DNA of 64,000 nt from Minisyncoccota bacterium (GCA_022842945.1 JALHOO010000001.1:93830-157829); one strand, 5' to 3'; counted from the stretch's first letter, positions 30,962 through 38,259 are shown. Made by a program: numbers and translations. Notes: generated by a model not told the origin, from the sequence alone.

Positions 30962-30962
30962 A

Positions 30963-31436
30963 ATGACAGAGAAGGCAAAGAGTACAAAAGAGCTGGAGAA
31001 GACCGTTGATGACGGTGCTTCGATAACCAGTGATTTGCCTGCCGATAAGACAGTTAATAGGTCTAGCTTTTCAAGTTGGAGTCGTGCGATACCGCCTGCA
31101 GAGCTAAAAAAGCCGGACGTAGCTCGTGCGATAGCGAAGATGCTTCTCATGCTCAATGATGACCTTCAACGTGATCTTGAGAAGGCCCATCCATTTGAGG
31201 CTAAATTCTATGAGGCCGATAAGCGTACAGAAGTGCTCAAGGAGAGAATACGTGGCCTGCAAAAATCGGTCGGTGTAAAGGTACTATTCTCCTCTGCGGG
31301 CTTTGGCCTCGTGGGCTTTTCACCGTTCCTTTGGGACAAATATGTTCCACTATTTATACTGGCCATAGCTTTAGGAATCGTACTCATTGTCGTCGGTTAC
31401 TTCATAAAGGATATAAGTGACAAATTCGAAAAGTAA
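30963..31436 (+). CDS. hypothetical protein with C-terminal double TM helix (157 aa)
   Basis: Soluble charged N-terminal region, then VLFSSAGFGLVGFSPFLW...LFILAIALGIVLIVVGYFI. Confidence 0.5.
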   Translation: MTEKAKSTKELEKTVDDGASITSDLPADKTVNRSSFSSWSRAIPPAELKKPDVARAIAKMLLMLNDDLQRDLEKAHPFEAKFYEADKRTEVLKERIRGLQKSVGVKVLFSSAGFGLVGFSPFLWDKYVPLFILAIALGIVLIVVGYFIKDISDKFEK

Positions 31437-31440
31437 ATCT

Positions 31441-31824
31441 ATGCAGATTGAAATTAAGAAAATTGTAGATAGAGATCTCCTGGAGCAAGAAAGAGCAGTT
31501 CTTGGTGTAGTTTCTGATACTTTCTTAGGAAATTTTGCGATATTCCAAACTCACTCAAACTCATCCGGAACTGTATCAACACAGATAAAAAGAACATATT
31601 GGTTTCCAGATCGGGATGTGAAGGCTGGCGATATAATTGTTATTTATACTAAGTCTGGGAAGAATAAAGTGCGTGACAATGACGATGGTACTCAGTCACA
31701 TTTCTTCTATCTTGGAAAGGATGCGCCAATTTGGAAAGACGATTCCTCAGCACTGGCAATAATTAATATCCTTGAGTGGGACTATAAAACGGCTGATGGA
31801 AAAGGAGGGAGAGAAAAGATTTAG
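31441..31824 (+). CDS. hypothetical protein (127 aa)
   Basis: ATG 4 nt after the upstream stop; low-GC codon usage shared with the island. An alternative GTG start lies at 31417. Confidence 0.45.
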   Translation: MQIEIKKIVDRDLLEQERAVLGVVSDTFLGNFAIFQTHSNSSGTVSTQIKRTYWFPDRDVKAGDIIVIYTKSGKNKVRDNDDGTQSHFFYLGKDAPIWKDDSSALAIINILEWDYKTADGKGGREKI

Positions 31825-31964
31825 ACCACATGGGCTATTTTTAGATTGGTATAAGAAACTTGTTAGTCACCCTTAAATAAGGTGGTCGATCACGCCTGCA
31901 TGGACCTTGCGATCTAACTGAGCAAAATCTAAGCCTTAAATACTGTATATATTCTTACAGTCGG

Positions 31965-31985
31965 GAAGTGGGGTAGAATACTGTG
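31965..31985 (+). promoter_or_regulatory. extended -10-like element (TGgggTAGAAT) upstream of the MmeI-family gene
   Basis: AT-rich 200-nt gap; TGnTAGAAT about 45 nt upstream of the ATG at 32031. Confidence 0.3.
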
Positions 31986-32030
31986 ACAAAGACTTAGTAG
32001 GAATGCTGCCAAAAAGACCCCAAGAAATTT

Positions 32031-34709
32031 ATGATCAATCTAGTAAGCCTACAGGAGGATCTTGAGAATCTCAGTCAGAAATTTTCAAAGCAAACGTTTG
32101 TCTTTGATTTGCTGTCCGTGTATGGACTGCCGAAAAGCACCATCTCTTTACTTTTCAAAAACCCCTCAAAGCTATCGGGAAAGGAAGATCAGATCATTTT
32201 AAAAAACAAGGTGCTTTTTCACATAACCAACTTAGAAGAAGACGAGCACGTCGCTATCGATACTCTACAAAAGGATAAGAACTCATATAAATTCAATCCT
32301 CGATTCATTATCGTTACGGACTTTGCAACATTCTTGGCTGTAGATACAAAAACAAAGGAGACTCTTGATATCCAGATTGGGGATCTCGGCAGACATTACG
32401 CATTTTTCTTGCCGTGGTGTGGCATGGAAAAATCACAGCATGTTAATGAGAACCCTGCTGATATTCGTGCTGCCTACAAAATGGACAAGTTGTATCAGGC
32501 AATTGTTAATGACGATCCAGAATACTATAAGAACAATAGTCACGATTTAAACATATTTCTATCACGGCTTCTTTTCTGTTTCTTCGCCGAAGATACCGGA
32601 ATCTTCCCGAAAGCAGGATTATTCACAAACTCAGTAATTTCTCATACTCATGAAAATGGTGAAGAGTTAGATGCACATTTCTCAACGCTGTTTGATCTGT
32701 TGAACACAAAAGATAGCGACCGGTCAAAGTTTGCATCTCACTTTTTGGAATTCCCATATGTAAATGGGGGTCTTTTTGAAGACAAGATTAAGTTACCTGC
32801 ATTTACTGCTAGTTCACGAAAACTGATTATTGAGTGTGGAAAATTGAATTGGGATTCAATCAATCCTGACATCTTCGGGTCTATGATCCAGGCTGTCGTT
32901 CATCCTGGACAGCGAGAGAATCTCGGAATGCACTACACCTCTGTGCCTAACATAATGAAGGTGATTGAACCGCTCTTTCTTAATGATTTGTACGAAGAAT
33001 TAGAAAGGTCGAAAAATGATCCAAAGAAATTAGAAAATCTTCGTGACAGAGTTTCCAAGATCAAGATATTTGATCCAGCCTGTGGATCAGGTAATTTCCT
33101 CATTATCTCGTACAAGGAGTTATCAAAACTAGAATCAAAAATAGTTGCTTACGCCAAAGCCATTGGGCATGACATGGTGCAGTACTCTGGTGTATCTCTA
33201 AACTCTTTCTACGGAATAGAGATAGATGACTTTGCTCATGAAATTGCCAGACTTTCACTTTGGCTAGCTCAACACCAAATGAACCAGTATTTCGATGGAA
33301 TGTTTGGAATTATGAAAGCAACACTCCCGCTTAAAGAAAGCGGAAAGATTGTTTGTGGTAATGCCACGAGAGTCGATTGGGAGGAGGTCTGTCCTCGTAA
33401 AGATAAGGTTGTAGGAGAACATGAAATATATGTAATTGGTAATCCTCCTTACTACGGGGCAAGAAAGCAAGATGACGAACAGAAAGAAGATATCAATAGA
33501 ATTTTTAAGGGGGTCAAGAATGCGAGCAATCTGGATTATATTTCCTGCTGGTTTCTTCTTGGCAAGAACTATATTCAAGGCACAAAGATCAAGCTGGCTT
33601 TTGTTTCAACAAATTCAATTTGCCAGGGCGAGCAGGTCTCTATTCTATGGCCACTAATTTTAAAAGACCAAATCGAAATAGGTTTCGCGTACCAGTCATT
33701 TAAATGGAAGAACAGTGCCAAGGGTAATGCCGGAGTCACTTGCGTTATTGTTGGATTAAGAGCTGAAGCAAAAAATCATAAATATATTTTTAGTGGTCAA
33801 ATTAAGATTTCAGCCAAAAATATATCACCGTATCTTGTAGATACTGATAATCTTTTTGTGCAAAAAAGAAGTAAACCGCTATCACAGATTCCAGAGATGT
33901 GCTTTGGAAGTATGCCTAATGATGGTGGATATCTTTTGATTGACCAGAATGAGTATGTAGAACTTAAAAGTAATAATCCTACTGTTCTTAGTTTTATAAA
34001 ACGATGCTACGGTGGCCAGGAATTTATCAAGGGAATTGTCAGGTATTGTATTTGGATCAGTGATAAAGAAGTTGACAGTGCTATGAAGATTGAATTTATT
34101 AAAAATAGAGTCGAGCTAGTTCAATCATATCGAAGTAAGAGTGACAGGGAAGCAACTAGAAAATTGTCTGCAAAGCCTTACAAATTTGGTGAGATTAGAC
34201 ACCTTGATACCAATTCAATCATTGTTCCTCGAGTTTCGTCCGAATTGCGTGATTACATTCCTGTAGGTTTTCTGACCAAGAACGATATCATCACTGATTC
34301 TGCCCAGGTTATATATAACGCCGAGCCTTATATTTTTGCTGTACTAAATTCACACATGCACATGACCTGGGTGCGTGCTGTTGGAGGAAAATTGAAGACT
34401 GACTTGAGGTACTCGTCCGCACTTTGTTACAACACCTTCCCATTTCCAGAGATTACCCCAAAGCAAAAGGACTCGCTTGCTACTCATGTCTATAATATTC
34501 TCGAAGAGCGCGAGAAATATCCCAATAAAACGATGGCAGACCTGTATGATCCAGTAAAGATGCCGGATAGCTTGAGGGAAGCTCATAAATATTTAGACCT
34601 CGCCATAGACCAAATATATCGAAACAAACCCTTTGAAAGTGATGAAGATCGGTTGGCTCATTTGTTCAAATTCTACGAAGAGATGATTACTAGAGAAACC
34701 AACGGATAA
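32031..34709 (+). CDS. MmeI-family (Type IIL / ISP-like) N6-adenine DNA methyltransferase with C-terminal target-recognition domain and an N-terminal nuclease-like domain of uncertain activity
   Basis: Motif I FDPACGSGNFLI and motif IV NPPY (VIGNPPYYG). MmeI-family signatures RLLFCFFAEDTGIF, FPYVNGGLF, HYTSVPNIMKVIEPLF, FVSTNSICQGEQVSILWPLIL, RYSSALCYNTFPF and the ADLYDP..MP..L..AH..LD C-terminal helix. Confidence 0.85.
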   Translation: MINLVSLQEDLENLSQKFSKQTFVFDLLSVYGLPKSTISLLFKNPSKLSGKEDQIILKNKVLFHITNLEEDEHVAIDTLQKDKNSYKFNPRFIIVTDFATFLAVDTKTKETLDIQIGDLGRHYAFFLPWCGMEKSQHVNENPADIRAAYKMDKLYQAIVNDDPEYYKNNSHDLNIFLSRLLFCFFAEDTGIFPKAGLFTNSVISHTHENGEELDAHFSTLFDLLNTKDSDRSKFASHFLEFPYVNGGLFEDKIKLPAFTASSRKLIIECGKLNWDSINPDIFGSMIQAVVHPGQRENLGMHYTSVPNIMKVIEPLFLNDLYEELERSKNDPKKLENLRDRVSKIKIFDPACGSGNFLIISYKELSKLESKIVAYAKAIGHDMVQYSGVSLNSFYGIEIDDFAHEIARLSLWLAQHQMNQYFDGMFGIMKATLPLKESGKIVCGNATRVDWEEVCPRKDKVVGEHEIYVIGNPPYYGARKQDDEQKEDINRIFKGVKNASNLDYISCWFLLGKNYIQGTKIKLAFVSTNSICQGEQVSILWPLILKDQIEIGFAYQSFKWKNSAKGNAGVTCVIVGLRAEAKNHKYIFSGQIKISAKNISPYLVDTDNLFVQKRSKPLSQIPEMCFGSMPNDGGYLLIDQNEYVELKSNNPTVLSFIKRCYGGQEFIKGIVRYCIWISDKEVDSAMKIEFIKNRVELVQSYRSKSDREATRKLSAKPYKFGEIRHLDTNSIIVPRVSSELRDYIPVGFLTKNDIITDSAQVIYNAEPYIFAVLNSHMHMTWVRAVGGKLKTDLRYSSALCYNTFPFPEITPKQKDSLATHVYNILEEREKYPNKTMADLYDPVKMPDSLREAHKYLDLAIDQIYRNKPFESDEDRLAHLFKFYEEMITRETNG

Positions 34710-34713
34710 TTTT

Positions 34714-36651
34714 ATGAAAACCATTCAAGTCGCCGAAGCAACATACGAACAGACGGGGCAAAGTACCAAGCTTAACGAGCTTGGTATGCGTGAAATGCAA
34801 GCCAAAGCATTCGAAAAAAAGGGTGCTCAGTACCTACTTTTGAAAGCCCCTCCAGCATCTGGAAAGTCCAGAGCATTGATGTTCCTTGCTTTAGATAAAC
34901 TTGCCAATCAAGGCATCAAAAAAGTCATTGTTGCCGTTCCCGAGAGATCTATCGGTGGATCTTTTAGTGAGACCAATCTAACTGAGAGTGGTTTCTTTGC
35001 AGATTGGAAACCAAATGATGACTACAACCTTTGTACTCCTGGTCTAGATAATGCAAAAGGCAAGGTCGAAGCGTTTAAGAATTTTGTGAATAACGATGAG
35101 AAGATCCTCATCTGCACTCATTCAACGCTTCGCTTCGCATGTGAACAAATTGAAGACTCAAAATTCAATGATATGCTCATTGCGATTGACGAATTCCATC
35201 ATGTGTCTGCTGACAAAGAGAGCAGCATTTTAGGGCGCGTTTTGCACGGAATAATGACTAATTCAAACGCGCATATTATTGCGATGACAGGGTCATACTT
35301 CAGGGGAGATGGTGTTGCTGTTCTGTTGCCACAGGATGAGGCAAAGTTTCAGAAAGTGACATACAACTACTACCAGCAGTTGAATGGCTACACCTATTTA
35401 AAGACCCTAGGTATCGGGTACCATTTTTACCAAGGCAGATACACATCAGCGATTACTGAGGTGTTGGATACAAACAAGAAGACGATTCTACATATTCCGA
35501 ACGTGAACTCCGGGGAGTCCACAAAGGATAAGCTCAATGAAGTCGATCTGATCTTGGATATCATCGGAGAAGTAGATCATCAGGATCATGAGACTGGTGT
35601 TATCTATGTAAGACGTGACGGAGACGGAAAGATGCTTAAGGTCGCAAACCTTGTCGACGATTCAGTCGATCGAGACAAGATATCAAACTACCTCCGTACC
35701 ATGAAAAACGAGGATGATATGGATATCATCATTGCTTTGGGTATGGCAAAAGAAGGTTTTGACTGGCCGTACTGCGAACATGCACTGACTGTCGGCTATC
35801 GAAGCTCTCTCACAGAGATCATCCAGATCATCGGCCGCTGCACCCGTGATAGTGCTAACAAGACTCATGCTCAGTTTACAAACCTCATCGCCCAGCCTGA
35901 CGCAAAGGACGGTGAGGTTAAGGTGTCCGTAAACAACATGCTGAAGGCGATTACCTGCTCTCTACTTATGGAGCAAGTCATGGCCCCGCACTACAACTTC
36001 AAGCCTCGATTCCCCAATGACGACAATTCTTTTACTCCGGGCGAGATTAAAGTAAATGGATTTAAGGCACCAAGCACCGAACGGGTGAGAGAAATCATTG
36101 AATCAGATATCAACGATCTCAAGGCATCTATTCTTCAGGACGACCAAATGATTAAGGCGTTGCCTGGAAATGTTGATCCTGAGGTAATAAACAAGGTGAT
36201 GATCCCAAAGATTATCCAAATGAAGTATCCAGATCTTAGCGATCTTGAGGTTGAGGAAGTCCGCCAGCATGTCGTTGTTGACTCTGTAATTAAGAACGGA
36301 GAAATTAAGATTGTAGGAGACAAGAAGTTTGTCAGAATGGCGGGGCAGTTTGTGAATATCGACGATCTTAATATTGATCTCATTGATAGCATCAACCCCT
36401 TCCAGGAAGCCTTTGAAATACTTTCAAAATCCGTGACAACGGGCATCCTCAAGGTCATTCAGGACACAATCGACTCTTCCCGAATCGAGATGACACCAGA
36501 GGAAGTTAAGATTCTATGGCCTAAGGCAAAAGAGTTTACAATCCAGACAGGTCGGAAGCCTGAAGTTACTTCGTCCGATCCGCTTGAGAAAAGGCTAGCC
36601 GAAGCGGTGCTCTATCTGAAGAAACTCAAGGCCGAGCAAATCCAAAATTAA
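34714..36651 (+). CDS. SF2 DExH-box helicase (restriction Res/HsdR-like ATPase core, no nuclease domain)
   Basis: Motif I APPASGKS, motif II DEFH, motif III TGS, motif VI QIIGRCTR. Located 4 nt after the methyltransferase stop. Confidence 0.8.
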   Translation: MKTIQVAEATYEQTGQSTKLNELGMREMQAKAFEKKGAQYLLLKAPPASGKSRALMFLALDKLANQGIKKVIVAVPERSIGGSFSETNLTESGFFADWKPNDDYNLCTPGLDNAKGKVEAFKNFVNNDEKILICTHSTLRFACEQIEDSKFNDMLIAIDEFHHVSADKESSILGRVLHGIMTNSNAHIIAMTGSYFRGDGVAVLLPQDEAKFQKVTYNYYQQLNGYTYLKTLGIGYHFYQGRYTSAITEVLDTNKKTILHIPNVNSGESTKDKLNEVDLILDIIGEVDHQDHETGVIYVRRDGDGKMLKVANLVDDSVDRDKISNYLRTMKNEDDMDIIIALGMAKEGFDWPYCEHALTVGYRSSLTEIIQIIGRCTRDSANKTHAQFTNLIAQPDAKDGEVKVSVNNMLKAITCSLLMEQVMAPHYNFKPRFPNDDNSFTPGEIKVNGFKAPSTERVREIIESDINDLKASILQDDQMIKALPGNVDPEVINKVMIPKIIQMKYPDLSDLEVEEVRQHVVVDSVIKNGEIKIVGDKKFVRMAGQFVNIDDLNIDLIDSINPFQEAFEILSKSVTTGILKVIQDTIDSSRIEMTPEEVKILWPKAKEFTIQTGRKPEVTSSDPLEKRLAEAVLYLKKLKAEQIQN

Positions 36652-36652
36652 T

Positions 36653-37801
36653 ATGGATAGAAACGATTTACTAGATTTGCTAAATGATGACGACCTAGGA
36701 CTTCTCGATATAGAGAAGAAGTCTGTTTCCGTTACGCCAGATGATCGGCTATCAGAATCATTTATGGAAATAAATGAGTTTTTCTTGGCGCATAATAACG
36801 AACCAAAGAGTGGCGGAGATATCCATGAACACAAGCTTGCATCAAGACTTAAGCACATCAGAGAGAATAAAGAGCAAAGAGACTTCCTCAGTAAATACGA
36901 TACTCATAGTCTATTGAAGACTGATGCAAAGGATCTCGATACCGTAAGTGATATTTTTGCAGACGACGATTTGGATCTCCTTTCGCTTGAGGATAGTTCT
37001 GTTTTTAACATAAAGAACGTTCCAGAAATCAGACAAGATCGCTCCAACCCCGACTTCGTTGCACAGAGAGAGATTTGTACTGATTTCGATAAGTATGAGT
37101 ATCTGTTTGCACAGGTTCAAAGGGACCTAAAGAGCGGAACAAAGAAGCTGGCTAGCTTTGTTGAAAGTGAGATGAAAGAAGGCGACTTTTTTGTACTTAG
37201 TGGAGTGCTCATATATCTCGAAAAAATTGATGATCCATACCGAGGTAACAGTCAAAAAATAAACAGGCGAACTCGTTGTATTTATGAGAACGGGACTGAA
37301 TCAAGCGTGCTTCTTCGATCGCTTGGGAAAAGACTTTCTGATGCAGGGTATGCCATAAAGGGTAATTCAGAGATGGTGGCTATTGAAGATGGAGATTCTG
37401 AGACAGGCTATATCTATGTACTTAAGTCCCTAAGTGAGAATCCAAGGATCGCAACTACTAAAAACCTTTTCAAGATTGGTTTCTCAACTACTCGTGTCGA
37501 AGAGCGTATAAGGAACGCAGAACAGGACCCTACGTATCTAATGGCTCCAGTTTCTATTGTCGCTACTTACCGATGTTTCAACATGAATCCTCAGCGGTTC
37601 GAAAGGCTGATACACCGTTTCTTCAGTGAGTCATGTCTGGATCTTGAAATCACCGACAAGGATGGGAGAAGTTATGTTCCAAAGGAGTGGTTCGTAGCAC
37701 CAATAACGGTAATCGGAAATACCATCGAACTAATCATCAAGGGAGAGATCGTCAATTATTCTTATGACAAAGATACTGAGTCAATTGAAAAGATTAGATA
37801 A
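36653..37801 (+). CDS. protein with an acidic N-terminal tandem motif and a C-terminal T5orf172/GIY-YIG-superfamily nuclease-like domain
   Basis: GYIYVLKS...KIGFSTTRVEERIRN...ERLIHRFF...EWFVAP matches the T5orf172 (MUG113) pattern. DDDLGLLDIEKKSVSV and DDDLDLLSLEDSSVFN repeats. Begins 1 nt after the helicase stop. Confidence 0.7.
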   Translation: MDRNDLLDLLNDDDLGLLDIEKKSVSVTPDDRLSESFMEINEFFLAHNNEPKSGGDIHEHKLASRLKHIRENKEQRDFLSKYDTHSLLKTDAKDLDTVSDIFADDDLDLLSLEDSSVFNIKNVPEIRQDRSNPDFVAQREICTDFDKYEYLFAQVQRDLKSGTKKLASFVESEMKEGDFFVLSGVLIYLEKIDDPYRGNSQKINRRTRCIYENGTESSVLLRSLGKRLSDAGYAIKGNSEMVAIEDGDSETGYIYVLKSLSENPRIATTKNLFKIGFSTTRVEERIRNAEQDPTYLMAPVSIVATYRCFNMNPQRFERLIHRFFSESCLDLEITDKDGRSYVPKEWFVAPITVIGNTIELIIKGEIVNYSYDKDTESIEKIR

Positions 37802-37809
37802 TACTTCTC

Positions 37810-38259
37810 TCAAATAGGATTCACAATTTTATTGAAATGCCTAGACGGCACTGGTGTAACCGAAAGCCTCGACCCTTTTTGTAAAATCATCATCCCTAAA
37901 GAAGCATCGGCACGTATATCCGATAGGGTAACGGGCACATCAAACTTCTTTACGAACGCAATATCAACCAAGTCCCATATTGGCCTTGCTTCAGTTGCAC
38001 GCTTGTCGTAGTAGTCGCTCTTCGGATCAAACTGCGTTGGGTCTGGATACGCTTCCGTAACAACCTTTGCAATCCCATACACTCCAGGAACCTTGCAGTT
38101 GGAATGATAGAAGAGAACCTCGTCGCCAACCCGCATCTCACGCATATAGTTCCTCGCTTGAAAGTTCCGCACGCCATTCCATGACGTCTTTCTATCCTTC
38201 TTTAAATGGTCTATCCCGTAGCTCTCGGGCTCTGACTTCATAAGCCAATACTGCTTCAT
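37810..38259 (-). CDS. EVE (PUA-like/YTH-like) domain protein
   Basis: MKQYWLMKSEPESY...WNGVRNFQARNYMREMRVGDEVLFYHS is the canonical EVE N-terminus. Confidence 0.8.
   Translation of the reverse strand: MKQYWLMKSEPESYGIDHLKKDRKTSWNGVRNFQARNYMREMRVGDEVLFYHSNCKVPGVYGIAKVVTEAYPDPTQFDPKSDYYDKRATEARPIWDLVDIAFVKKFDVPVTLSDIRADASLGMMILQKGSRLSVTPVPSRHFNKIVNPI

What the first reader, a model, noticed from the sequence alone, without database searches (positions are those of the whole stretch)
30962..37805. Low-GC island encoding an MmeI-family methyltransferase-TRD, a DExH helicase and a T5orf172/GIY-YIG-like nuclease: a candidate split Type ISP/III-like defence system
Five co-directional genes sit in a ~6.8-kb block at about 38-46% GC, against ~55% for the flanks. 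The block begins 1 nt after the rpoD stop codon.

The three large genes are separated by gaps of 4 nt and 1 nt, which suggests translational coupling. They are an 892-aa MmeI-family gamma-class N6-adenine methyltransferase with a C-terminal TRD, a 645-aa SF2 helicase carrying DEFH motif II (as in restriction Res/HsdR motors) but no nuclease domain, and a 382-aa protein whose C-terminal domain fits the T5orf172 (GIY-YIG superfamily) pattern.

Known Type ISP enzymes such as LlaGI combine Mrr nuclease, SF2 motor, MmeI-like methyltransferase and TRD in one polypeptide. Type III systems pair a Mod methyltransferase with a Res motor-nuclease. BREX uses an MmeI-like PglX but requires PglZ/BrxC/BrxL, which are absent here.

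I do not recognise an arrangement in which an MmeI-like methyltransferase-TRD, a stand-alone DExH motor and a separate GIY-YIG-type nuclease are three ORFs. This is consistent with a new modular RM/defence architecture, or with a decayed ISP system carrying a recruited nuclease.
Basis: partly seen in the sequence, partly recalled or inferred. Interest (0 to 1): 0.88.

Follow-up and report, generated by a model that had tools for sequence, protein, structure and literature searches.

The report
Known YeeA-YeeB-YeeC restriction-like defence island
The low-GC island after rpoD is real, but its three big genes are an intact copy of the DnmA(YeeA)-YeeB-YeeC methyltransferase, helicase and GIY-YIG nuclease cluster first described in 2009, so it is a new member of a known but poorly understood defence system, not a new architecture.

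Summary
Five co-directional genes form a 41% GC island (rest of window 54%) starting 1 nt after the rpoD stop.

The novelty claim is refuted. The three large genes are orthologues of DnmA(YeeA)-YeeB-YeeC. The helicase is 64% identical to B. subtilis YeeB and 52% to V. crassostreae YeeB. The third protein is 38% and 33% identical to the respective YeeC proteins.

- The window's MmeI-like protein keeps an MmeI_N-homologous domain but lacks the nuclease residues.
- Methyltransferase, helicase and GIY-YIG motifs are intact.
- Gene order was the same in every fetched genome locus with enough contig (29 complete triads), across many phyla.
- YeeB is under very strong purifying selection, while the target-recognition domain is hypervariable.

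orf1 and orf2 are a separate two-gene cassette. The rpoD-EVE junction is a defence hotspot, with empty sites and other defence cargo in close relatives.

Function is inferred, not shown: yeeAB protects V. crassostreae, while the B. subtilis locus is inactive.

The parts
30962..37809 (+). Low-GC island inserted between the rpoD stop codon and the stop codon of the convergent EVE-domain gene
   Evidence: GC is 0.410 against 0.539; tetranucleotide distance is 0.496 against at most 0.165. Empty sites L052 and L053 have rpoD, a 46-95 nt spacer with a terminator-like hairpin, then EVE. No flanking direct repeats, tRNA or integrase were found.
32031..34709 (+). YeeA/DnmA-like protein: an MmeI-family gamma-class N6-adenine methyltransferase with TRD, and an N-terminal MmeI_N-homologous domain that lacks the PD-ExK residues
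   Evidence: All five MmeI Pfam domains match. PDB 5HR4 MmeI matches at E = 3.5e-186, but only from residue 89. FDPACGSGNFL and NPPY are conserved.
32031..32510 (+). N-terminal domain (residues 1-160), homologous to the MmeI nuclease domain but catalytically dead; the proposed docking module for YeeB and YeeC
   Evidence: In 33 of 33 YeeA-like proteins, MmeI D70 falls in a deletion, E80 aligns with H/K/Q/R and K82 aligns with T/V/L/I. The stand-alone MmeI-family enzyme of L054 keeps all five residues. Pairwise identities of this domain track those of YeeB (Spearman 0.895).
33843..34454 (+). Target-recognition domain (residues 605-808), the hypervariable specificity module
   Evidence: It is 38-53% identical in relatives whose N and C domains are about 70-90% identical. 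DNA homology is lost over about 33755-34300. pN is 0.35-0.44. Spearman correlation with YeeB is only 0.35.
34714..36651 (+). YeeB-like SF2 DExH ATPase/helicase with no recognisable nuclease domain
   Evidence: 64% identical over its full length to B. subtilis YeeB and 52% to V. crassostreae YeeB. Motifs I APPASGKS, II DEFHH, III MTGS and VI QIIGRCTRD are invariant. pN is 0.03-0.065 with saturated pS. It keeps the C-terminal tail found in Vibrio YeeB and missing from B. subtilis YeeB.
36653..37801 (+). YeeC-like protein with a C-terminal T5orf172/GIY-YIG-type nuclease domain (residues 252-360, nt 37406-37732)
   Evidence: T5orf172 E = 4e-12 and MUG113 E = 1e-11. All 29 family members match both. 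G252, Y255, K274-I275-G276, R285 and E345 are invariant. 38% identical to B. subtilis YeeC and 33% to V. crassostreae YeeC.
30963..31436 (+). orf1: 157-aa protein with a hydrophobic C-terminus; first gene of a separate two-gene cassette, not part of the triad
   Evidence: Only two relatives were found by the word-indexed search. A 53% identical homologue in L045 sits next to an orf2 homologue, in a context without rpoD or yeeABC. It is absent from all 40 triad loci.
31441..31824 (+). orf2: 127-aa member of an uncharacterised ~120-aa family; second gene of the cassette
   Evidence: 49% identical to the L045 neighbour. Exhaustive HMMER finds 675 cluster representatives, 304 at E <= 1e-10. There is no Pfam family; 9 of 48 members show weak Lamin Tail Domain similarity.
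31825..32030 (+). 206-nt spacer between the cassette and the triad; DNA homology with triads in other genomes starts at about 32022
   Evidence: blastn against the loci. Promoter-like matches are no more frequent than in shuffled sequence.

Best explanation
Window 32031-37801 encodes an intact member of the DnmA(YeeA)-YeeB-YeeC system. This is the 'second group' of MmeI homologues described by Morgan et al. in 2009. It sits in a horizontally acquired island at a defence-gene hotspot just downstream of rpoD.

Proposed mechanism:
1. The YeeA-like subunit reads an asymmetric DNA site through its hypervariable TRD and protects host DNA by m6A methylation. m6A methylation at GACGAG has been shown for B. 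subtilis DnmA; here it is inferred from intact motifs.
2. Its N-terminal domain derives from the MmeI nuclease domain but has lost the PD-ExK residues. It serves as the docking and communication module for the two partner proteins. This is inferred from its co-variation with YeeB.
3. YeeB is an SF2 DExH ATPase that supplies ATP-driven translocation or remodelling from unmodified sites. This is inferred.
4. YeeC supplies DNA cleavage through its T5orf172/GIY-YIG domain. This is inferred.

The result would be a Type I-like, three-subunit restriction-modification defence with MmeI-type specificity and modification. orf1 and orf2 are a separate cassette that shares the hotspot.
For: Identity:
- YeeB and YeeC orthology: 64%/52% and 38%/33% identity over full length to the B. 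subtilis and V. crassostreae proteins (sequences from Fig. S5 of PMC9973331).
- The family definition in PMC2731913 is met. The protein is a full-length MmeI homologue without PD-ExK, followed by a helicase and then a GIY-YIG protein.
- Synteny: same order and tight spacing in every one of the 40 fetched genome loci where the contig allows (29 complete triads; the rest are contig-truncated or interrupted), across Patescibacteria, Bacteroidota, Pelagibacterales, Actinomycetota and others. The same arrangement is annotated on a Bacillus plasmid.

Likely to be active:
- Catalytic motifs of all three proteins are invariant.
- YeeB pN is 0.03-0.065 with saturated pS.
- The window's YeeB keeps the C-terminal tail present in the protective Vibrio protein and absent from the inactive B. 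subtilis one.

R-M-like behaviour:
- The TRD is hypervariable and decoupled from the conserved chassis.

Defence role:
- Only yeeAB mediated resistance to one phage group in V. crassostreae.
- The same rpoD-EVE site carries a Schlafen-type helicase, a Mrr-STAND NTPase plus an MmeI-family enzyme, or a DNA methylase in close relatives, and is empty in others.
- The helicase occurs on 265 plasmids but on almost no phages.
Against: - No biochemical demonstration of restriction by any YeeABC system was found in the searchable literature.
- The B. subtilis locus does not restrict plasmids or three phages, and its authors regard it as an R-M relic.
- YeeA and MslORFHP alone showed no endonuclease activity.
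- The roles of YeeB (translocase or switch) and YeeC (nuclease), and the docking role of the N-domain, are inferences from motifs and co-variation.
- Structure predictions were too poor to help.
- The MmeI residues 1-106 used were recalled from memory. They passed six numbering checks and were corroborated by the tool-derived L054 comparator.
- The YeeB and YeeC reference sequences are machine-read from a figure and may contain errors.
Confidence: 0.72

Rival explanations
1. Relic system. Only the methyltransferase is functional and acts as an orphan epigenetic regulator, as proposed for B. subtilis DnmA. YeeB and YeeC no longer restrict DNA.
For: The B. subtilis dnmA-yeeB-yeeC locus gave no protection against three phages and no restriction of plasmid transformation. 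DnmA methylation affects promoter activity there.
Against: All three ORFs are intact with invariant catalytic motifs. YeeB and YeeC are under strong purifying selection across phyla. The window's YeeB keeps the C-terminal tail that B. subtilis YeeB lacks and Vibrio YeeB has. The locus sits in a defence hotspot.
Confidence: 0.15
2. One reading: a previously unrecognised modular R-M architecture, or a decayed Type ISP enzyme that recruited a nuclease.
For: PADLOC v2.0.0 and NCBIfam have no dedicated models. The triad is only hit as 'Type IIG REase-MTase' plus weak PbeA, Cas3 and PDC-S57 matches, so automated tools would not name it.
Against: The arrangement was described in 2009 and revisited in 2020-2023, and orthology was shown directly. 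No Mrr or SF2 remnant is fused to the methyltransferase. Its N-domain is MmeI_N-like. The triad is conserved in many genomes rather than being a one-off decay product.
Confidence: 0.03
3. A stand-alone MmeI-type Type IIL/IIG restriction-modification enzyme, as PADLOC would call it, with two unrelated neighbouring genes.
For: Full-length match to PADLOC REase_MTase_IIG (1030 bits) and to all five MmeI Pfam domains.
Against: The PD-ExK residues needed for MmeI cleavage are absent in this and in all 33 YeeA-like proteins. A stand-alone MmeI-family enzyme in a related genome keeps them. The helicase and the GIY-YIG gene follow it in every locus that is long enough. YeeA alone had no endonuclease activity.
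Confidence: 0.02
4. All five island genes form one functional system, with orf1 and orf2 as obligatory components such as a membrane effector or sensor.
For: The genes are co-directional and share a low-GC island. The gap between orf1 and orf2 is 4 nt. No terminator-like site separates orf2 from yeeA beyond chance expectation.
Against: orf1 and orf2 are absent from all 40 triad loci. DNA homology with other triads starts only at about 32022. The orf1-orf2 pair occurs without the triad in L045.
Confidence: 0.05

Closest known systems
DnmA(YeeA)-YeeB-YeeC cluster of Bacillus subtilis and Vibrio crassostreae; the 'second group' of MmeI homologues (Morgan et al. 2009, PMC2731913; Nye et al. 2020, PMC7261158; Fernandez et al. 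2023, PMC9973331; Piel et al. preprint 10.1101/2021.05.05.442762)
   Same: Same three proteins in the same order with tight spacing. The MmeI homologue lacks PD-ExK. The YeeB orthologue is 64%/52% identical and the YeeC orthologue 38%/33% identical. The locus lies in a low-GC, horizontally acquired region.
   Different: Different host (probably a Rectinemataceae-like spirochaete) and a different TRD, so presumably a different recognition sequence. YeeB has the C-terminal tail that B. subtilis YeeB lacks. The locus sits at an rpoD-flank hotspot alongside an unrelated orf1-orf2 cassette.
MmeI and the Type IIL/IIG single-chain R-M enzymes (PDB 5HR4)
   Same: Homologous over the whole length (E = 3.5e-186 from residue 89). 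Same domain order: N, helical spacer, gamma-class methyltransferase, TRD, C-terminal domain. Modification is probably on one strand of an asymmetric site.
   Different: The N-terminal domain lacks D70, E80 and K82, so it cannot cleave in the way MmeI does. Cleavage is presumably delegated to separate YeeB and YeeC subunits and is likely ATP-dependent.
Type I R-M systems (HsdM/HsdS/HsdR) and Type ISP enzymes (LlaGI, LlaBIII)
   Same: Specificity and modification are combined with an SF2 ATPase motor. The methyltransferase is a gamma-class enzyme related to HsdM. Accessory defence genes embedded in the operon in some relatives (L024, L026) resemble those in Type I loci.
   Different: There is no separate HsdS. 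The motor has no fused PD-(D/E)XK or Mrr nuclease. The nuclease is a separate GIY-YIG/T5orf172 protein. It is not a single polypeptide as in Type ISP.
BREX (PglX) and DISARM (DrmMI), which use methyltransferases related to the MmeI family
   Same: Distant similarity of the methyltransferase region to PglX and DrmMI models.
   Different: The scores are far below the family cut-offs (37.6 bits against 500 for BREX-1 PglX). No PglZ, BrxC, BrxL or DrmA, DrmB, DrmC is present in the island.

Membership tests
DnmA/YeeA-YeeB-YeeC system (MmeI-family group 2) | Full-length MmeI homologue with gamma-class N6-adenine methyltransferase motifs and a C-terminal TRD | tested here: met
   MmeI_N, MmeI_hel, MmeI_Mtase, MmeI_TRD and MmeI_C all score above their cut-offs. 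PDB MmeI matches at E = 3.5e-186. FDPACGSGNFL and NPPY are conserved.
DnmA/YeeA-YeeB-YeeC system (MmeI-family group 2) | The N-terminal ~100 residues differ from MmeI and lack the PD-ExK motif (D70, E80, K82) | tested here: met
   HMMER does not align residues 41-88 with MmeI 50-106. D70 falls in a deletion, E80 aligns with H/K/Q/R and K82 with T/V/L/I in 33 of 33 proteins. The stand-alone L054 enzyme keeps all the residues.
DnmA/YeeA-YeeB-YeeC system (MmeI-family group 2) | Immediately downstream DEAD/DExH helicase orthologous to YeeB | tested here: met
   64% identity to B. subtilis YeeB over residues 6-605 and 52% to V. crassostreae YeeB over 6-643. The gap to yeeA is 4 nt.
DnmA/YeeA-YeeB-YeeC system (MmeI-family group 2) | Followed by a YeeC-like protein with GIY-YIG/T5orf172 motifs | tested here: met
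   38% and 33% identity to B. subtilis and V. crassostreae YeeC. T5orf172 scores 46.9 bits against a cut-off of 20. The GIY, YIG, Arg and Glu residues are invariant.
DnmA/YeeA-YeeB-YeeC system (MmeI-family group 2) | Conserved three-gene synteny across genomes | tested here: met
   Same order in every locus with enough contig, with gaps or overlaps of a few nucleotides. Also annotated this way on plasmid pBTBD59S1.
DnmA/YeeA-YeeB-YeeC system (MmeI-family group 2) | m6A methylation of an asymmetric site, and YeeB/YeeC-dependent restriction | not testable with these tools
   Needs a methylome and phage or plasmid assays. Literature: DnmA methylates GACGAG. yeeAB protects V. crassostreae. B. subtilis shows no protection.
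MmeI-type Type IIL/IIG single-chain R-M enzyme | Conserved PD-ExK catalytic residues in the N-terminal endonuclease domain | tested here: not met
Type ISP R-M enzyme | Single polypeptide: Mrr-like nuclease, SF2 motor, gamma-class methyltransferase and TRD | tested here: not met
   There are three separate ORFs. No Mrr_cat or helicase domain occurs in the 892-aa protein.
Type III R-M system | Mod methyltransferase paired with a Res subunit carrying an SF2 motor plus a PD-(D/E)XK nuclease | tested here: not met
   The methyltransferase is MmeI-family. The helicase has only weak ResIII and DEAD matches and no detectable nuclease domain. The nuclease is a separate GIY-YIG-type protein.
BREX | PglX together with PglZ, BrxC and BrxL | tested here: not met
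   PglX models score 15.7-37.6 bits against cut-offs of 400-900. No PglZ, BrxC or BrxL match occurs among the island or flanking proteins.
DISARM | DrmMI with DrmA, DrmB (DUF1998) and DrmC or DrmD | tested here: not met
   Only partial DrmMI matches (best 128 bits against 1030 for the Type IIG model). There are no DrmA, DrmB or DrmC matches.

The most novel reading that the evidence does not exclude
The YeeABC triad may be a mechanistically distinct R-M class whose biochemistry has never been worked out. In it, a hemimethylating MmeI-type reader uses its dead nuclease domain to dock an ultra-conserved SF2 motor and a GIY-YIG nuclease. This intact copy, with the full YeeB tail, would be a good representative to solve it with. 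In addition, the neighbouring orf1-orf2 cassette may be a new defence or abortive-infection module. It pairs a membrane protein with a member of an unannotated ~120-aa family that has 675 cluster representatives. It shares a hitherto undescribed rpoD-flank defence hotspot.
Probability: 0.3. Interest if true: 0.55.

Novelty: new member of a known kind. Interest (0 to 1): 0.25.

Why it matters
The main value is corrective. An apparently new 'split Type ISP/III-like' system is the YeeA-YeeB-YeeC cluster, known since 2009.

It still matters modestly, for three reasons.

- The system is very widespread. The helicase has more than 8000 homologues, occurs on 265 plasmids and spans many phyla.
- The anti-phage and annotation libraries tested here have no dedicated model for it. 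PADLOC matches it only to its Type IIG model, so annotation pipelines probably mislabel it.
- Its mechanism is unsolved. There is conflicting functional evidence: it protects in Vibrio and is inactive in B. subtilis.

The comparative data gathered here give concrete hypotheses for experiments. These data are the dead MmeI_N domain co-varying with YeeB, extreme purifying selection on YeeB, TRD shuffling, and the YeeB C-terminal tail missing in the inactive B. subtilis protein.

Tried and rejected
- **AlphaFold2 of the YeeC-like protein.** A single sequence was the only input allowed. Mean pLDDT was 33, so the model is unusable.
- **AlphaFold2 of YeeB.** The 36-sequence alignment was shallow. 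Mean pLDDT was 52 and pTM 0.32. Foldseek against the PDB gave no hit at E <= 0.001, only generic SF2 helicases.
- **Profile searches against PDB sequences.** YeeB matched only DHX58 at E = 0.009. YeeC gave nothing meaningful. The orf2 family gave nothing.
- **Mobility signatures.** No att-like direct repeats, tRNA genes or integrase were found.
- **Promoter and terminator scan.** Counts were no higher than in shuffled sequence.
- **Recent cross-phylum transfer as the reason for 93-96% YeeB identity.** Rejected, because synonymous sites are saturated.
- **orf2 as an orphan.** The word-indexed search suggested this. Exhaustive HMMER overturned it.
- **Acidic DDLGLLD repeats in the YeeC N-terminus as a family-wide motif.** Only 14 of 33 members have two or more copies.
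- **BREX, DISARM, Type III and Type ISP membership.** All rejected.
- **Literature searches for a newer name or a solved mechanism.** None found.

Full report
**1. The observation**

The five co-directional ORFs exist as described:
- 30963-31436 (157 aa)
- 31417 or 31441-31824 (135 or 127 aa)
- 32031-34709 (892 aa)
- 34714-36651 (645 aa)
- 36653-37801 (382 aa)

The gaps between the three large genes are 4 nt and 1 nt. The upstream gene is rpoD, preceded by dnaG. Its TAA stop lies 1 nt before the orf1 ATG.

The block is a compositional outlier. Its GC is 0.410, against 0.539 for the rest of the window. No 1-kb window outside it falls below 0.498, and none inside exceeds 0.453. Its tetranucleotide distance from the rest is 0.496, against at most 0.165 for 30 same-size control segments.

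**2. What the proteins are**

The 892-aa protein matches all five MmeI Pfam domains: MmeI_N, MmeI_hel, MmeI_Mtase, MmeI_TRD and MmeI_C. It matches the solved MmeI structure sequence at E = 3.5e-186. PADLOC's only strong match is to a 'Type IIG REase-MTase' model, at 1030 bits over the full length.

The alignment with MmeI starts only at residue 89, so residues 41-88 do not align with MmeI 50-106, which carry D70, E80 and K82. I aligned 33 YeeA-like proteins with the MmeI N-terminus. MmeI residues 1-106 were recalled from memory; they pass six numbering checks. In that alignment D70 falls in a deletion, E80 aligns with H/K/Q/R, and K82 aligns with T/V/L/I.

A comparator derived from the tools confirms this. 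A stand-alone MmeI-family enzyme found downstream of rpoD in a related contig (L054) keeps all five conserved nuclease-domain residues. None of the 33 YeeA-like proteins does. Methyltransferase motifs I (FDPACGSGNFL) and IV (NPPY) are conserved.

The 645-aa protein is an SF2 ATPase. Motifs I (APPASGKS), II (DEFHH), III (MTGS) and VI (QIIGRCTRD) are invariant, and no nuclease domain is recognisable.

The 382-aa protein has a C-terminal T5orf172/MUG113 domain. To my knowledge both are GIY-YIG-clan families. All 29 relatives tested match both families. G252, Y255, K274-I275-G276, R285 and E345 are invariant.

**3. It is a known system**

A literature search led to B. subtilis dnmA(yeeA)-yeeB-yeeC. 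Morgan et al. 2009 (PMC2731913) split the MmeI homologues into two groups. One group has PD-ExK. The second group lacks it, differs in the first ~100 residues, and is 'invariably' flanked by a DEAD helicase (YeeB-like) and a protein with GIY-YIG motifs (YeeC-like).

They proposed that the MmeI-like subunit gives specificity and protective modification, while the helicase and the endonuclease subunits cut. YeeA and MslORFHP alone did not cleave DNA.

Later work added the following:
- Nye et al. 2020 showed that DnmA makes m6A at GACGAG, and found no restriction of transformation.
- Fernandez et al. 2023 confirmed the synteny and found no phage protection in B. subtilis.
- In V. crassostreae, only yeeAB mediated resistance to one phage group.

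I tested orthology directly, using the machine-read sequences in Fig. S5 of PMC9973331. The window's helicase is 64% identical to B. subtilis YeeB over 600 residues, and 52% identical to V. crassostreae YeeB. The third protein is 38% and 33% identical to the two YeeC proteins.

**4. Comparative evidence**

The helicase has at least 8000 homologues. In the 40 genome loci fetched with it, the order MmeI-like, helicase, T5orf172 is kept wherever the contig is long enough. Spacing is a few nucleotides or a short overlap. orf1, orf2, rpoD and EVE never co-occur with the triad. The helicase is on 265 plasmids, 120 of them conjugative (an annotated example is). Only 3 of 50,697 phage records carry partial copies.

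DNA homology with other triads spans window ~32022-37803, which is exactly the three genes.

Conservation is uneven along the system:
- YeeB is 93-96% identical at the protein level to copies in Patescibacteria, Izemoplasmatales and Bdellovibrionales, but only about 80% at the DNA level.
- Synonymous sites are saturated (pS 0.7-0.8), while YeeB pN is 0.03-0.065. This reflects long-term purifying selection, not recent transfer.
- In the closest relatives (L001-L007, L011, L013, L036) the YeeA N-domain is 82-90% identical and the C-domain 79-91%.
- The TRD is only 38-53% identical, with pN of 0.35-0.44.
- Pairwise identities of the N-domain track YeeB (Spearman 0.895). Those of the TRD do not (0.35).

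This fits a conserved chassis in which the dead nuclease domain co-evolves with the motor, and a specificity module that is shuffled. That is typical R-M behaviour.

The window's YeeB also keeps a ~40-residue C-terminal tail. The protective Vibrio protein shares it, and the inactive B. subtilis protein lacks it.

**5. The island and its site**

Close rpoD relatives in metagenomes show that the rpoD-EVE junction is variable.

| Locus | rpoD identity | What follows rpoD |
|---|---|---|
| L052, L053 | 94%, 92% | Empty site: a 46-95 nt spacer with a terminator-like hairpin, then convergent EVE |
| L051 | 97% | Schlafen-group-3 helicase fused to Peptidase_S24 |
| L054 | 94% | Mrr-STAND NTPase plus a stand-alone MmeI-family enzyme |
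| L062 | 91% | N6_N4 DNA methylase |
| L059 | 94% | UvrD fused to PD-(D/E)XK (may be housekeeping rather than defence) |

rpoD is native up to its stop codon. The hairpin is missing in the window. Six independent Logan assemblies of this locus all break 71-82 nt upstream of orf1. That is consistent with co-existing strains carrying different cargo. No repeats, tRNA or integrase mark the borders.

**6. orf1 and orf2**

These two genes form a separate cassette. A pair 53% and 49% identical, with the same order and spacing, occurs in an unrelated context in L045. orf1 has a hydrophobic C-terminus.

The word-indexed search made orf2 look like an orphan. Exhaustive HMMER then found 675 cluster representatives of a ~120-aa family with no Pfam model. 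That family shows only weak Lamin Tail Domain similarity.

**7. Verdict**

The functional idea is reasonable: MmeI-like specificity and modification, a separate motor, and a separate GIY-YIG nuclease. It is already published.

The claims that do not hold are:
- novelty;
- a decayed Type ISP enzyme;
- a five-gene system;
- membership of Type IIL, Type ISP, Type III, BREX or DISARM.

This is a new, apparently intact member of a known but biochemically unsolved system. Restriction activity here is inferred, not shown.

Noticed in passing
window 30962 and 37802-37830; loci L051-L054, L059, L062: The junction between rpoD and the convergent EVE-domain gene is a variable defence hotspot in this lineage. 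Close relatives have empty sites, a Schlafen-helicase fused to Peptidase_S24, a Mrr-STAND NTPase plus a stand-alone MmeI-family enzyme, a DNA methylase, or a UvrD-PD-(D/E)XK fusion (which could be housekeeping). The terminator-like hairpin after rpoD in those relatives is missing in the window, where orf1 starts 1 nt after the rpoD stop, so read-through from rpoD is possible.
   Followed up: partly
window 30963-31824; L045:2952-3790: orf1 (a 157-aa protein with a hydrophobic C-terminus) and orf2 (127 aa) form a conserved two-gene cassette that is independent of the triad. orf2 belongs to an unannotated ~120-aa family with 675 cluster representatives, no Pfam model and only weak Lamin Tail Domain similarity. 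Its function is unknown, and it may be another defence module.
   Followed up: partly
L024:3443-7973; L026:6240-7868 (also L015 and L020, between yeeA and yeeB): Some relatives carry extra genes inserted between yeeA and yeeB. L024 has an SMC/AAA_21 ATPase (872 aa), a membrane protein and a Bro-N protein. L026 has a Schlafen AlbA_2 plus HATPase_c_4 protein. This resembles the accessory defence genes embedded in Type I R-M operons.
   Followed up: partly
window 34714-36651 compared with L001-L013: YeeB is unusually conserved for a defence-associated protein. It is 93-96% identical at the protein level across distant phyla while synonymous sites are saturated (pS 0.7-0.8, pN 0.03-0.065). The C-terminal 245 residues, of unknown function, are as conserved as the ATPase core.
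   Followed up: yes
window 36653-36985 (YeeC residues 12-19 and 104-111): The YeeC N-terminal region carries two acidic DDLGLLD/DDLDLLS motifs. They are also present in the protective V. crassostreae YeeC and mostly absent from B. subtilis YeeC. Only 14 of 33 family members have two or more, so the feature is clade-level. It may be a partner-binding peptide.
   Followed up: partly
L041-L043 and L046-L050 (Logan assemblies SRR28154520-32): Six independent assemblies of the same locus all begin 71-82 nt upstream of orf1, inside the rpoD 3' end. This suggests an assembly-graph branch caused by co-occurring strains with different cargo at this site.
   Followed up: partly
window 37810-38259 (- strand): The gene abutting the island is a stand-alone EVE (PUA-like) domain protein. 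Its cluster includes a Rectinemataceae MAG, which hints at the host lineage. EVE domains are linked elsewhere to reading modified bases, but here the gene is also present at the empty sites, so it appears to be native rather than island cargo.
   Followed up: partly
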